A stretch of 63,947 bases of DNA, filler included, from Kipferlia bialata (GCA_003568945.1; 7 parts of 7 records of this genome joined end to end with filler, not necessarily neighbours in it), one strand, 5' to 3'. Positions 84 through 63,890 are shown, counted from the first letter of the whole stretch. Notes: generated by a model from the sequence alone, not told the origin. A program made the numbers and translations.

Positions 84-1395
84 GTACCAGACCATGATGG
101 CCAAGTGGCAGGCAGGCAAGGCCCGGTTCCCCACATTCATGTCATCCAGGCCACCCATAGTGTGTAACTCACTCGCGCCAGAGGTATGGGTGTTAATATA
201 TATATGTGTATGTCCATAGTGTGTAACTCACTCGCACCAGAGGTATGCATACTCCCCATACTCTCTCTCTCTCTCTCACTCTCTCTCTCTCTTACCCTCC
301 AGGACGTGGACTCTCTCTTCTGGTTCCTCTACTCCCTCATGAGGGTCATCCAGGGGCCCTACAGAGGTGGGGAATTATATTGAGTGTATATATGTGTCTT
401 CTCTGCGACTGGGAGACTGTTCGTTCATATTTGTACCTGATAGAGATAAATAGTTATATATGTCACATCATGTTCTCACCTTCAGAGCGTGTCCGCAAGG
501 CTGTTCCCGACCACACGCTGTCCTTGGTTGCACAACATAGGGAGACGGCAGCATTCTTATCACACTTGAGTCAGGTACACTTAACTATGTATTTTGTACT
601 CACATAATGCTATCCATTGCACATGCTCTCACCCCCAGGAAGAGATGCTGGGTCTGCTGCCCATAGCCTATAGGAAGAGACCCACCTGTGGCAGTGTGCA
701 CAGGAGGGTGACACCCATCACCATTAGGTATAATGATATATATACATGTATGTATAGATGGAGATATGGTATATAATATAGCCTCATATGTATATCCATA
801 CCTGTGGCAGTGTGCACAGAAGGGTGACACCTATAACCATCAGGTATTATGATATATATATATATATTCATGAACATACTTGTGTGTGTGTGTATAGTAT
901 CTCCCTCTGACCCCCAGTGTCCAGAAGCACCGCAGGTATATATATAGGGTATATGTATATATATGTATGTATGTATTAGGTATCTTTTCGTCTCTCTCTC
1001 TCTCTTCTCCTTCTTACCCCAGTGTCCAGAAGCACCGCACCCCCGTCCCATCCCCGTTCTGTCTGGACAGACAGTCAGGTATAGCGTCGAGTCACTTCTA
1101 CGTATATATACATATGTACATTGCTGCCTGATTATACTATGCCATGTGTGTATACGTCTCTGACCCCTAGGCCACCGCAAGGTTGACAGTCCCTCCACCA
1201 TGACATGCCCTGACCTGATACTGGTACCCACACTCAAGGAGCACCAGGGTGAGTATAGTTGAATTCTATGCTTAGTATGTATATACCCACTTGTGTAGTA
1301 CTACATGCTTATATGAGTGTATGTATGTATATACACTCACCCCCCAGTCCGACACTGGCACACAGACAGGGCATCCCGCATATATAGAGTGATAG

Positions 1396-1428
<33 letters not shown>

Positions 1429-4400
1429 CATTCATACTTTACTCTTATCATCCAGTCCGACACAGACACAGACAGGGCATCCTGCATATATAGATAGATA
1501 TATATATATTAGATATATATATATACATACTTTACTCTTATCATCCAGTCAGACACAGACACAGACAGGGCATCCTCAAGGCACAGAGGCTCAAGGAGAG
1601 ACTCAGGTACAGTGATGAATATATGTATACATATATATAGTATATATATATATATATATTTGTATGCATACCTTACCCCCAGGGCCAAGGAGCAGAACAA
1701 GAGTATATGTAGTATACAATGTCTATATGTGGTATCTGTATATTTTATATACCTGACCACCAGGGCCAAGGAGCAGAACAAGATTGCCACTAGGCAGAGG
1801 GAGAAGGAGAGGGAGCAGAGGCTGAAGAGAGAGAGGGGGAAGGGGGCAGCCAAGGGCAGTGCAGACTCATCACCCGTCAAGGGGTACTCGGCAAGGTACG
1901 TGTATGTATATATATATATATATCAATATATATGCTGATAAGAGATACATCCTCACCCCCAGGGCCGAGAGGATGGCCAAGCGTAGCACCCGCAACCTGG
2001 CCCTGCCCTGTCACTACCAGCCATACATTGAGACACTCAGGTATGCATTACCATTTGTATATACAACACCTCTGTACATTGACACAGTGATATATGTATA
2101 CATATGTGTATATACAACTCTCCTATACGTAGAGACACTCAGGTATGCCCCGTATCATCACGTATATGTGTGTATACATTCATGTATGAAAGTGTGTAAA
2201 TATGTAGTGTGTGTATGTTTTCATGGCCACTCTCACCTTCCAGGGATGACCTCGACGGTGAGACGTACATGATGAGTGTTGCCACCGATATACATATATT
2301 TTGTGTAATTGTATATATACATATATATTAACCCCAGGGACGATCTAGACGGTGAGACCTACATGAGGAGTGTCATTGGTGATGCAGAGACCATGTACGG
2401 ACTCATGGAGGGGGAGAGAGAGGCAGAGGCAGACAGTGGTGCCTCTAGTGCCGCTAGTGCCGCTAGCAGTGCTGCCACCTCTCCCTCTGCCACTGCTGCA
2501 TCCACTAGTGCCTCTAGACTGCCCAGTCACATGAGGAGGCAGGACATGAGCATGCCAGGTTGGTATATACAGTATATGTTGTATATATAGTATGTATATA
2601 TTCAGATGTACATATCACATGAGGAGACAGGACATGAGCATGCCAGGTTGGTATAGAGTTATATATATATATATATATGTAGTATATGTAGTACTCTAGT
2701 TATTGTTAGTGCAGACAATATGTAGATATCGCATGAGGAGACAGGACATGAGCATGCCAGGTTGGTGATATACTATATATATGTGGTATAAATATGGTGT
2801 GTATATATACAGATGTGCGTATCACATGAGCAGGCAGGACATGAGTATGCCAGGTGCAGTGTATTATGTGTAGTGTCTGTAGTGTCTGTAATTGTTATGG
2901 CCACTGATGTTGACTTTTGTGTCTCTCCAATCACCCCTCACCCCAGGCGACATCTTTGTGGACCTCCTTCCTGACTCTCTGGCCGATCTAGAGCTGCATG
3001 AGCTGACTGTGGCTGAACTGAAGAGACTCAGCCTGGCTCTCAATGCACTGCAGCCAACGTCATTGATTAGGTATATAGATATAGATAGCGTATATATTTA
3101 TAGAGAGAGAGAGACTCAGCCTGGCTCTCAATGCACTGCAGCCAACGTCATTGATCAGGTATATATATATACATATACATATATATATATATGTGGATAC
3201 AGATAGACATTGATATATACCCCCTATCATGCTGACCCCCTAGGAAGAAGCACCAGGCCCTGGCCCTGAGGGCAGAGTTCACGGCCCAGGAGACACCCCC
3301 TGTGGAACAGAACATGGATCCAACGGGGTGGGTGCATACCTCATCTGTATATATATATATATATATATGCAGATATATTCATGTGAGTGTAAGCATTCTT
3401 CTGTATTATATCTACTCAACGCCTGTGGAACAGAACATGGATCCAACGGGGTGTGTAGATTTCAATCAGCCATACATCCCACTCTCTGTATTCATATATA
3501 TTTTTTGTATAATATACTCTTACCTCTAGTGAGGATGCTCTTCCCAAGGAGGTTGACCTCTGGGCCACCCGTACCCGGTCTCTCTTTGACCCCTACACCC
3601 TGGCTGAGGTGGCACAGCTATACGACCCCACACTCACTCTGCCCGATGCCCAGATGCCTAGGTACAGAGTACAGTGGTCGCATCTATAACACAAGGAATT
3701 CTCTCTCTCTACCTTCCCTCACCCCAGTGGCTATGTCCCCCCCCTTGGTGTGTGCTCTGATGTATCAGCCATAGCACAGACAGTAATAGGCGGTAGAGCA
3801 CAGGTATGCAGTGTAATACATACTGTAATCACGATATGTTCGTTCACAATTGTTGTCCTTTACCCCAGGTCCTCCGCACTGCCCTTCGGACTGAGCAGGA
3901 GAGGCTGTGCACAGGCACAGACGATGAGTATGACAGAGAGGGTGTACTGGAGAGAGTGAGGGACCTAGAGGCGGCACTCACAAGGGTGTACACACCACTA
4001 GGTACGTGTTAATCATGTATATATGTGACAGTGTGAATGTGTATGTGTTCTGTTGATACTCACCCTCCCAGGCACTGCCGCCGAGGAGTCCCTGACTGCA
4101 TCCCTGGGTATAGCACACTGGAGACCCAACAGCAGGGTGCATCATGCATCTACAGCAGGGGTTGCTGGAGCCACTGACACTGCCACTTATGCTGCCCCCA
4201 CCTCTAGTGTCCCTAGTGTACCTAGCACCTCTGCCTGCAGTGCTGTAGATATGGGCATCATAGGAAGGGCACTCTCTAGGGGGCCCAGTGCTAAGGTACC
4301 CCTCATACATACACTCATACTCTACAGTACTGTCCCCTATATCAGTCATTCTCTCCCTCTCTTACTCTCCTTACATAAGGCTGCCCAGGAGCTAGAGAGG

Positions 4401-5860
4401 CTGTGCAGGGAGGCCAGTGCCACCCCTGCTGCATCTACAGCACCTACTGTCCCCACCCCCTCCCACCCACTACCGGTGCCCCCTGAGGACTCATCGTACA
4501 CAGCCATAGTGACACCAGGGGCTGACAGGTATATATAGATATATCTATATATATGCATATACAACTATTATGAATCCACCCCCCTCACCCCCCCCACCCC
4601 CCAGGCTCACTGACCGTGCCTGCACCCTCATCTCCCACCCTGGCCCTGGGTGCATGCAGCATGACGTGACAGAGGGACCCCCCACCCTGCACCCCACCCC
4701 CCACACACACTACACACCCCATACACCATCTACTACTGCTACCGTAGCTGTGGATACCCCCCCTGTGGATGAGGGGTGTATAGATGAGGACACCCCCCTC
4801 AGGTGGGAGTGGCAGGGGGTGGGAGACACTGTGCTGGAGTGTCTGAGGCAGAAGCAGGCCGAGCTGGATAACCTGTCACACCACAACAGACTGGTCACAC
4901 ACCACACGGGTATGTATGTATATAGATATAGACTTATTGCATGCTCTCTCTCTATGTGTACATGTGTATCCCTCTGGATCCACCGCAGAGTGCCACGTCT
5001 ATATCTCTCTATTTATGTGTATATTCGTATTGCTCCCTCTAACCCCAGTCCAGTCTGCCTCCTCCGTGCATGCCCATGATGCAGATGCAGTGATTAAGAT
5101 GGACGCAGTGGTGGGGGTGCACAGACAGTGGGGCAAGGTGTGGATATAGTGTGATATGTACATAGATATTTGTATATATGTGGGGAGGGGGAGAGAGAGA
5201 GAGTATATTGTGGATGCAGTGGTGAGTGTCATATTCACGCTATGTACTGGTAAAGACTGCCACTGACATCTAGGCTGTCTGTGATGCCACCAGACGCAAG
5301 ATGGACACGTCCAATGATGTGCTGGTGCTGGGTGCAGTGCACGTGCCACAGGTACAGATACCTCATGTATATATATATATACATAGCAACAAATGCACAA
5401 TATGATTGGCTAGCTCTATGCACTTGTTTTCTGTATTGTGCTAGTTCCTAACTCCTAGAACAAGTGCAAGCAGCTTCATGGGTCTCTAAGACCATACCTC
5501 AAGAGGAGCGAGGAGGGACTGGCGGCAGCGGGGGTGGCAATGCCTCCTAGGTACGCGTATCTATGTATATACATGTATGTATGTGTGTATGTATATATGT
5601 ATATACTCACCCCCAGGTACACCCCCTCAGCCGACAACCCCCTCAATGTGTATCTGCGTCCAGAGGTCCTAGGGGAGTGGAGGAAGAACCAGTGGAAGGC
5701 CCCCAAGAAGGGCGCCGCCTCTGTCGCCCCCACCCCCCTAGCCACCCCCTCCCTCACCCACCGGTACCCTGTCTCCCCCTGCATGCAGGGCTGGAGTGTA
5801 CGCCAGATGAGGGGGGACGGGAAGAAGGAGACGCAGAGAGTGCCAGACGGGCTGGAGTAG
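84..5860 (+). CDS. 5'-partial multi-exon (>20 exons) hypothetical protein with a possible Ada3/TADA3-like C-terminal region
   Basis: Chain of GT-AG-bounded GC-rich exons (e.g. DVDSLFWFLYSLMRVIQGPY, EEMLGLLPIAYRKRPTCGSVHRR, DDLDGETYMRSVIGDAE, GDIFVDLLPDSLADLELHEL) ending ...RVPDGLE* at 5860. Segment 4822-4908 (GDTVLECLRQKQAELDNLSHHNR) resembles, by eye, the conserved Ada3 helix. Confidence 0.6.
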
Positions 5861-63788: not shown

Positions 63789-63821
<33 letters not shown>

Positions 63822-63887
63822 CATTCTATTATATATACACTCTTCTGACCACAGCCCAGTGACTCTGACGGTGACAGAGACAGGGAC

Positions 63888-63890
<3 letters not shown>
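62164..63890 (+). CDS. Internal exons of a low-complexity hypothetical protein
   Basis: Exons AMLSPPAKAHLISATGEEEG...LDIEDE|AQTPSVLACSGLVSTPNATS|AASFTDSPISRVEPERE...|LVLPSKAVAEEKQRQRE...RRFDIVYQ|PSDSDG, each with GT-AG boundaries and echo copies. Confidence 0.5.

What the first reader, a model, noticed from the sequence alone, without database searches (positions are those of the whole stretch)
156..63890. Polarised echo architecture: donor copies downstream, acceptor copies upstream, in nearly every intron-rich gene
Seen: introns are built as exonA|GT..[A-end+GT]n..[AG+B-start]m..AG|exonB. Donor echoes: CACATGAGGAGRCAGGACATGAGCATGCCAG|GT at about 2528, 2616, 2730, 2824; GEGYAEMASLQQ|GT at about 15085, 15195, 15365, 15480; TLDc DFYLASANTSKDY|GT at about 43485, 43590, 43688. 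Acceptor echoes: MGTISG at about 11868, 11970, 12034, 12144 before the real exon at 12240; IMLHSGHVD at about 43788, 43862, 43953 before 44100. The complete exon is always the outermost copy, and many echoes keep an intact GT or branch+AG. Inference: the spliceosome must either ignore near-perfect proximal decoy sites or remove these introns stepwise from the inside out (nested or recursive splicing).
Basis: partly seen in the sequence, partly recalled or inferred. Interest (0 to 1): 0.8.

Follow-up and report, generated by a model that had tools for sequence, protein, structure and literature searches.

The report
Introns stuffed with copied splice junctions
In this stretch of the free-living protist Kipferlia, about half of the introns hold ~100-base extra copies of their own exon-intron junctions that the mature RNA skips wherever it could be checked, and the copies differ from the working exon mostly at silent codon positions, so they are likely scars of DNA repair that copied a diverged partner chromosome rather than a stepwise splicing device.

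Summary
Observation confirmed; the nested-splicing reading is not supported. The window is seven joined Kipferlia bialata contigs (species name). Of 129 modelled introns, 61 hold 54 donor and 51 acceptor echoes, in units of about 103 nt that make up 40% of intron bases. A separate assembly of a DNA run carries five echoes at normal depth. One RNA contig joins outermost sites in all five echo introns for which a joint was listed, skipping nine intact echo sites. Polarity is the geometry of a tandem duplication across one splice site. Inside-out removal is feasible in only 11 of 60 introns.

New here: echoes differ from their exon at 17.6% of 4-fold but 3.6% of 0-fold sites. The ratio is 0.20, against about 0.5 for a neutral copy. 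Stops are not depleted, and echo acceptors differ yet stay valid. Best reading (0.55): duplications templated on diverged alleles by recombination plus end-joining, tolerated because only full exons are recognised. Closest known: human F7-type boundary minisatellites. The scan noted a sparser case in a sea-urchin gene (e1-7787398).

The parts
84..5860 (+). Gene G1 (22 exons); 8 of 21 introns carry 13 echoes
   Evidence: model; 884 of 884 modelled residues equal public protein P0004; echoes
2559..2946 (+). Intron with three donor echoes (2615-2646, 2729-2760, 2822-2853), all with GT
728..1022 (+). Intron with donor echo 778-843 and acceptor echo 918-934; the only intact acceptor echo followed by a strong donor (possible 18-nt pseudo-exon)
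8267..10131 (-). Gene G2 (partial); acceptor echo 9528-9554; frameshifted whole-exon copy at 10185-10224
   Evidence: model not checked against a public protein
10349..19767 (+). Gene G3 (26 exons); 16 of 25 introns carry 33 echoes
   Evidence: 721 of 721 residues equal P0002
11171..11458 (+). Intron with acceptor echoes 11226-11269 and 11351-11391; the first differs from the exon in 7 codons and keeps every amino acid
11780..12240 (+). Intron with four acceptor copies of the MGTISG exon start (11868, 11970, 12034, 12143)
15120..15616 (+). Intron with three or four donor echoes of the ...YAEMASLQQ exon end; spans an NNN gap at 15338-15340
18367..19239 (+). Exon 18750-18837 with two acceptor echoes upstream and three donor echoes downstream (plus one donor echo of the previous exon)
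20693..23528 (-). Gene G4 (partial); 3 of 10 introns with echoes; in-frame 72-nt repeats inside the last exon
24415..30931 (-). Gene G5; 13 of 20 introns carry 21 echoes; includes a GC-AG intron (26102-25874) whose donor echo also has GC
   Evidence: 755 of 755 residues equal P0003
24214..24366 (-). Copies of the G5 last-exon end downstream of the gene, with no splice site
37271..38815 (+). Gene G8 (3' part modelled); 3 of 6 introns with echoes
39083..40672 (-). Gene G9; 1 of 7 introns with echoes
41432..44765 (+). Gene G10 (TLDc protein); 7 of 9 introns carry 15 echoes, plus an acceptor echo at 41432 before the first exon on the contig
   Evidence: 320 of 320 residues equal P0001; Pfam TLD 7.9e-15; RNA joints
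43532..44100 (+). 569-nt intron: two donor echoes, three acceptor echoes and a 55-nt intact inner GT-AG pair; the RNA contig joins outer to outer
42221..42638 (+). 418-nt intron: one donor and two acceptor echoes, all intact; the RNA contig joins outer to outer
45435..50428 (-). Gene G11 (phase-0 exons of 84-93 nt, LRR-like by eye); 5 of 15 introns with echoes; whole-exon duplicate pair
   Evidence: three RNA joints; no Pfam hit on single exons
62164..63890 (+). Gene G12 (partial); 4 of 4 introns with echoes

Best explanation
The echoes are real head-to-tail duplications of about 100 bases that cross one splice site and are skipped in the mature RNA where checked; they likely arose when a break inside an intron was repaired by copying the homologous, already diverged chromosome a little way into the exon and was then end-joined, and they likely persist because the spliceosome recognises only a site attached to a full exon. 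SHOWN: the copies, their polarity and unit size (median 103 nt; exon part median 32 nt, intron part median 72 nt), outer-site use in one RNA contig and four public gene models, and the excess of synonymous differences. INFERRED: (1) the template was another working allele, which explains why exon parts differ silently and why intron parts and branch sites differ yet remain valid; (2) the route is strand invasion, synthesis and polymerase-theta joining; (3) survival filters the products (frame-breaking exon duplications and echoes with long exon parts are lost, and echo GT/AG decay somewhat faster than the rest); (4) site choice is cross-exon or exon-sequence dependent, with mRNA decay possibly hiding some mis-splicing.
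For: Real DNA: X1 contig 41420-42780 is one piece with 0 other letters at depth 460.7, against 474.6 and 484.6 for neighbouring contigs, and spans five echoes; X2 record 10 carries 43852-44127 unspliced; X1 holds 0.97 of sampled words of 200-10199. Outer sites: 5 of 5 listed RNA joints in echo introns; four public proteins equal the outer-site models. Synonymous bias: 0-fold 72/2017 (0.036), 4-fold 92/523 (0.176), ratio 0.20, bootstrap 0.14-0.28 over 74 families; echo versus echo 33/673 against 35/161. It vanishes when the frame is shifted, holds in the 69 echoes of G3, G5 and G10 and after edge trimming, and a simulated neutral copy with the same detection filter gives 0.44-0.56. No protein-level filter on echoes: 8 stops against 5.1 expected, BLOSUM z=1.2. 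The 20 echoes identical in their exon part have intron-part identity of median 0.64, none at 0.88 or more; the median for unrelated introns is 0.56. The branch TNAC is kept in 28 of 35 while its free base differs in 13 of 28; chance is 75 of 1077. Context: diploid by k-mers (PMC5874029, passages); fornicates lack NHEJ and Rad51A and have two Dmc1, and K. bialata has PolQ (PMC8516963, section 8 and supplement rows); tandem duplication by HR start plus theta joining (PMC13031629, passages).
Against: No second allele or strain was seen: no other letters in the 6.9 kb laid (contigs that drop variants), and no related locus in two metagenome scans (the one hit L001 is a low-complexity match). A likelihood fit does not separate allele capture (AIC 468.0) from a constrained-echo model (466.9); only the neutral copy (506.1) is rejected. 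GT/AG loss matches the constrained-echo model with no extra assumption (17.9 expected, 18-20 seen), whereas allele capture needs selection for loss. 4-fold differences lean GC-to-AT (40 against 25), between the two predictions. No microhomology-like signal at echo ends (percentile 0.49). In worm tonsl mutants the homolog was not the template. Partner sites that would complete a pseudo-exon are not depleted, so exon definition has no direct support from that test. TA-repeat slippage could inflate intron-part divergence. The RNA evidence is one run, only guessed to be RNA, held as contigs, with 6 joints dropped at repeats.
Confidence: 0.55

Rival explanations
1. Ordinary same-chromosome or sister tandem duplications whose exon-like part stays under indirect selection, because recombination between echo and exon (collapse or conversion) can move echo sequence into the working gene.
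For: Fits the age model as well as allele capture (AIC 466.9, echo 0-fold rate 0.35 of neutral). GT/AG loss equals the neutral rate it implies. Needs no high allelic diversity, and none was seen in the laid region.
Against: Stops are not depleted (8 against 5.1) and amino-acid changes are not conservative (z=1.2). Echoes identical in their exon part already have intron parts at 0.64 identity. A collapse would also make the echo's GT/AG the working one, yet these are lost faster than 0-fold bases.
Confidence: 0.2
2. Echo sites are functional decoys or minor alternative sites that tune expression by unproductive splicing and decay, and selection keeps their signals.
For: Echo acceptors score like real ones despite 4.5 ungapped differences in 12 nt (small indels inflate this count). 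67 of 84 intact echo sites would give a stop or frameshift if used. Contigs hide rare isoforms.
Against: Does not explain a codon-position bias in untranslated copies. GT/AG are not preferentially kept. No echo-site joint was listed.
Confidence: 0.1
3. Nested or recursive splicing: the introns are removed stepwise from the inside out through the echo sites.
For: 11 of 14 two-type introns have an intact inner GT-AG pair at least 50 nt apart, and core lengths match echo-free introns (median 95 against 108, P=0.18). Mature outer-to-outer joints do not exclude intermediates.
Against: 46 of 60 echo introns are single-type, where inner-first splicing is a dead end; ratchet-capable sites are 4 of 42 and 1 of 41. 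Normal core length is expected from duplication alone. The outer sites are intact, so no inner step is required.
Confidence: 0.08
4. Assembly artefact: two alleles of a diploid were laid in tandem by a short-read assembler, which would explain the silent differences and a unit near read length.
For: The differences look allelic, the unit is about 100 nt, the species is reported diploid, and one array sits on an N gap.
Against: A separate k-mer assembly of the reads reproduces five echo junctions in one contig at the same depth as its neighbours, and a second library holds three acceptor copies in tandem. 97% of sampled words of another contig are in the DNA run. Echoes contain stops and frameshifts.
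Confidence: 0.04

Closest known systems
Exon-intron-boundary minisatellites with silent 5' pseudo-sites: human F7 IVS7 (37 bp), LMNB2 (100 bp), PDGF intron 4 (81 bp), CBS IVS13, 6-16 (PMC1557585; abstract, introduction and passages read)
   Same: The repeat unit spans the exon end and donor; intact copies lie downstream in the intron; the outermost site is used (exclusively in F7, LMNB2 and PDGF).
   Different: Those are a few loci with many copies (strictly identical sites in F7), all donor-side. Here 47% of introns, 1-4 copies, donor and acceptor types equally common, diverged intron parts and a synonymous bias.
Engineered splice-site duplications in globin genes (Lang and Spritz 1983; Kuhne et al. 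1983, seen only as cited in PMC1557585; Reed and Maniatis 1986, recalled, not found)
   Same: The same layout of duplicated donor or acceptor regions competing in cis. Recalled: outer sites win when the inner copy carries little exon sequence.
   Different: Artificial mammalian constructs with conflicting results; here about a hundred natural cases per 64 kb in an organism with a reduced spliceosome (87 of 174 proteins, PMC6679479 passages).
Tandem duplication by aborted homologous recombination plus polymerase-theta end joining (PMC13031629, passages read)
   Same: Head-to-tail copies; the route proposed here.
   Different: In that worm study both copies came from the same parental haplotype; here a diverged homolog is inferred as template, and junction microhomology was not shown.
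Intron gain by tandem duplication of an AGGT exon segment (Rogers model; ATP2A1, PMC3265369, passages read)
   Same: Intragenic tandem duplication that leaves the protein unchanged.
   Different: That creates a new intron from exon sequence; here existing introns lengthen and the copied site stays unused.
Recursive splicing (recalled) and fungal stwintrons (PMC6616335, PMC5587772; search listing and abstract starts only)
   Same: Several splice signals within one intervening sequence.
   Different: No ratchet points in most echoes, and no inner intron interrupts an outer signal.

Membership tests
Exon-intron-boundary minisatellite (F7 type) | Repeat unit spans an exon-intron boundary, head to tail | tested here: met
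   105 of 114 hits abut the exon end or start; 112 direct against 0 inverted near matches
Exon-intron-boundary minisatellite (F7 type) | Reiterated sites intact but silent, outermost used | tested here: met
   5 of 5 listed RNA joints, 9 intact echoes skipped; contigs only
Exon-intron-boundary minisatellite (F7 type) | Many near-identical units along their whole length | tested here: not met
   1-4 copies; intron-part identity median 0.64, 5 of 104 at 0.88 or more
Exon-intron-boundary minisatellite (F7 type) | Copy number varies between alleles | not testable with these tools
   no second strain found
Recursive splicing | AG|GT ratchet point with its own acceptor signals | tested here: not met
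   4 of 42 donor echoes and 1 of 41 acceptor echoes qualify
Recursive splicing | Intermediates and lariats at the inner site | not testable with these tools
   only assembled contigs are held
Stwintron / obligatory nested intron | Inner intron interrupts a donor, branch or acceptor of the outer intron | tested here: not met
   outer ends are intact in all 129 models: 128 GT-AG, 1 GC-AG
Intron gain by tandem duplication | The duplicated segment is excised as a new intron using the copied sites | tested here: not met
   RNA joints and four public proteins use the outer sites
Introner-type mobile introns | One sequence family repeated in unrelated genes | tested here: not met
   only 15 distant direct matches, simple repeats or rDNA; each echo matches its own neighbouring exon
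HR plus theta-joining tandem duplication | Microhomology or templated insertion at the junction | tested here: inconclusive
   no enrichment of intron-like sequence at echo ends; true junctions are blurred by divergence
HR plus theta-joining tandem duplication | Organism has the enzymes | not tested
   PolQ and two Dmc1 are reported in PMC8516963; not searched here

The most novel reading that the evidence does not exclude
Kipferlia introns grow mainly by capturing junction-spanning pieces of diverged alleles during Dmc1-driven inter-homologue repair, so each echo is a frozen former haplotype: a genome-wide fossil record of about 10-12% synonymous allelic diversity and of outcrossing in a free-living relative of Giardia, tolerated by a reduced spliceosome that picks sites by exon context instead of proximity or strength.
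Probability: 0.4. Interest if true: 0.8.

Novelty: new variant of a known kind. Interest (0 to 1): 0.62.

Why it matters
It shows a route of intron growth at unusual scale: echo units are 10,780 of 26,623 intron bases in the modelled genes. It supplies many natural cis-competition tests, including acceptor-side ones that first-come or scanning rules do not explain, in a lineage with a reduced spliceosome. If the allele reading holds, one assembly records past allelic diversity and inter-homologue repair in a fornicate, which bears on sex and on Rad51-less recombination in Giardia's relatives. In practice, echoes mislead gene finders (my first unpenalised parse called many as mini-exons) and may mislead read mapping.

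Tried and rejected
No whole genome is held, so all counts are from one window. RNA could be laid only on 41420-48300; G1, G3, G5 and the rest of G11 have no RNA check. Two metagenome scans gave no relative (0 of 31 candidates; 1 of 305, low-complexity). Three homolog searches returned only the organism's own proteins, and a fourth returned it plus three low-complexity hits. The idea that missing flap-clipping enzymes explain the long intron parts was dropped: XPF, ERCC1, MSH3 and FEN1 are listed for K. bialata. Microhomology test null. Partner-site depletion test null. Nearest echo more similar than innermost: only a trend (pS 14 against 4, P=0.07; pN P=0.30). Whole-exon duplication followed by decay was rejected as the general origin, since about one weak reverse-polarity hit occurs among 114. 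The one echo between the two whole-exon duplicates was left out of codon, score and geometry counts (104 of 105 used), as were G8's first intron region and a few short unmodelled genes. Literature: 'Kipferlia' + 'intron' gave 33 papers, 20 listed, none on this by title or abstract start; the genome paper's main text has 0 hits for 'duplicat' and 'allel' (its supplements were not read); some searches found the human minisatellite paper as the only natural precedent. The library lacks most subscription journals.
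Full report
What the window is. It is seven contigs (six of 10,228-10,248 nt in falling order of size, and a 1,921-nt piece) joined by 100-nt N-linkers. One holds an rDNA unit. A homolog search with one exon returned an NCBI protein named as from Kipferlia bialata, on a contig of 10,233 nt, the length of segment 5. 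The species is a free-living fornicate with 124,912 GT-AG introns and a diploid k-mer profile (PMC5874029, passages). No whole genome was available, so every count is from this window.

Gene models. A self-trained parser was curated by hand into 12 open models with 129 introns, 128 GT-AG and 1 GC-AG. The branch A lies 7-9 nt from the intron end in 114 of 129. Four models were checked against public proteins and agree fully: 320/320, 721/721, 755/755 and 884/884. They hold 44 of the 61 echo introns. The published gene set was made with AUGUSTUS and transcript hints, so if these proteins come from it they are partly RNA-based predictions, not proof.

The observation. The four named arrays are present. 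Aligning each intron with its flanking exons gave 114 hits: 54 donor echoes, 51 acceptor echoes and 9 internal fragments, against a 0.33% null. 61 of 129 introns and 10 of 12 genes have them. Intron length rises by 98 nt per echo (rho 0.78), and echo units are 40% of intron bases. Units are tight (median 103, quartiles 93-116). Polarity needs no special mechanism: a tandem duplication across one donor leaves the full exon upstream, and one across an acceptor leaves it downstream. Other survivors of the same kind of process are visible: of 112 near direct matches, 92 touch echo introns, 3 lie inside an exon (all in frame), 3 touch other introns and 14 lie outside the models. The geometry is not random, though: the exon part exceeds 50 nt in 5 of 104 against 51% simulated, and the intron part is under 40 nt in 6 of 104 against 36% (local alignment slightly shortens exon parts).

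Is it real DNA? Run X1 holds 0.97 of sampled words of 200-10199. Its contig covers 41420-42780 in one piece with no differences at depth 460.7, against 474.6 and 484.6 for neighbouring contigs, across five echoes, and X2 record 10 holds 43852-44127 unspliced. X1 may be the source of the window, so this is a separate assembly rather than a separate sample, but false tandem junctions would have no supporting 31-mers. One array (15085) spans an NNN gap and is uncertain.

Splicing. In X2 (guessed RNA, contigs), record 9 at depth 60.6 joins 41864-42107, 42220-42639, 42746-42896, 42994-43204 and 43531-44101, all outermost sites, and its loose end shows the outer acceptor near 41529 in use. These five introns hold 12 echoes, 9 of them intact and 4 scoring at least as well as the real site. 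Joints for G10's other two echo introns were not listed; 6 joints were dropped at repeats, and contigs hide rare forms. Across the window, intact echoes score like real sites. Inside-out removal is a dead end in the 46 of 60 single-type introns unless a ratchet point exists (4 of 42 and 1 of 41); 11 of the 14 two-type introns have a usable inner pair. Of 84 intact echo sites, use with the true partner gives a stop in 56, a frameshift without a stop in the insert in 11, and an open in-frame insert in 17, so decay could hide part of any mis-splicing. Skipping of upstream acceptors argues against first-come or scanning choice. Recognition through the attached exon is my inference: the short exon parts fit it, but partner sites are not depleted.

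The unexpected signal. Read in the exon's frame, 104 echoes show 149 synonymous and 91 non-synonymous differences over 1013 codons. By site class: 0-fold 72/2017, 2-fold 77/615, 4-fold 92/523; ratio 0.20, bootstrap 0.14-0.28 over 74 families. One echo per family gives 0.19, and echo versus echo gives 0.049 against 0.217. A copy that decays neutrally beside a conserved exon should give about 0.5, and simulation with the same detection gave 0.44-0.56. Shifting the frame abolishes the pattern. Yet echoes are not filtered as protein: 8 stops against 5.1 expected, BLOSUM z 1.2, and 0-fold changes run GC-to-AT 38 against 13. Intron parts are diverged even when exon parts are identical (20 echoes, median 0.64, none at 0.88 or more; unrelated introns 0.56), while branch motifs stay valid with a different free base (28 of 35 kept, 13 of 28 differ, chance 7%). 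The simplest reading is that echo and working site diverged while both were functional, that is as alleles, and were then placed in tandem. The fitted allelic 4-fold distance is 0.12 with later decay of 0.0375.

Mechanism, inferred. A break in an intron is repaired by invasion of the homologue, synthesis runs through the intron and some 20-45 nt into the exon, and the released strand is end-joined to the other broken end instead of annealing. This leaves a partial intron, an exon end from the other allele and a whole intron; the mirror event gives acceptor echoes. Fornicates lack NHEJ and Rad51A and have two Dmc1 paralogs, and K. bialata has PolQ and Spo11 (PMC8516963, section 8 and supplement rows). 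Dmc1 tolerates mismatches (PMC8682777, PMC11514202, abstract starts only). HR-started, theta-finished duplications are known, though in the worm study the homolog was not the template (PMC13031629).

Against this reading. No second allele was seen. A constrained-echo model fits equally well (AIC 466.9 against 468.0) and predicts the observed GT/AG loss (18-20 of 104) without extra selection. No microhomology signal was found, and slippage in TA repeats may inflate intron divergence. I put tolerated duplication with outer-site splicing at about 0.85, and the full reading with allele capture at about 0.55.

Known or new. Junction-spanning repeats with silent donors are known at a few human loci (PMC1557585; abstract, introduction and passages). 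In my searches I found no description of this in Kipferlia, of acceptor-side arrays at this density, or of the synonymous bias; the library is incomplete and the genome paper's supplements were not read. Verdict: a real, dense new variant of a known kind, with a new and testable origin signal; nested splicing is unlikely. Interest 0.62.

Noticed in passing
window 48773-48684 and 48227-48138 (-): Whole 90-nt exon duplicated with both splice sites; 10 of 30 codons differ (6 keep the amino acid). Could be both included or mutually exclusive.
   Followed up: partly
window 26102-25874 (-): GC-AG intron whose donor echo also has GC; the public protein P0003 agrees with this splice.
   Followed up: yes
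window 918-935 (+): Acceptor echo followed by a strong donor 18 nt later: a possible in-frame micro-exon, absent from public protein P0004.
   Followed up: partly
window 7762-8031 (+): Four or five tandem copies (49-74 nt units) of an intron-end-like motif with no exon part, outside the modelled genes.
   Followed up: no
window 13134-13298 (+) and 20693-20923 (-): In-frame tandem repeats inside exons (78-nt and 72-nt units), probably the coding survivors of the same duplication process.
   Followed up: partly
window 51699-61926 (-): rDNA unit (SSU 59313-61070, 5.8S, LSU 55098-58612) with an exact 1,120-nt terminal overlap (51699-52818 = 60807-61926), as expected for a collapsed tandem or circular repeat.
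   Followed up: no
window 6480-7494 (+): Kelch-repeat ORF (Pfam E 4.8e-11) that changes frame near a TA run at about 7040-7068; intron, frameshift or pseudogene unresolved.
   Followed up: no
window 47286 (-): The RNA joint uses the first of two AGs four bases apart after the branch, which restores the reading frame of G11.
   Followed up: yes
window 43948 (+), run X2: Loose end whose letters match the flank of the first acceptor echo (about 43750-43782); probably the unspliced rest of record 10 laid on a sister copy, but a shorter array variant is not excluded.
   Followed up: no
window 45120-45137 and 45978-45995: Short stretches hit by several foreign contigs in run X1 (loose ends): possible small dispersed repeat.
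   Followed up: no
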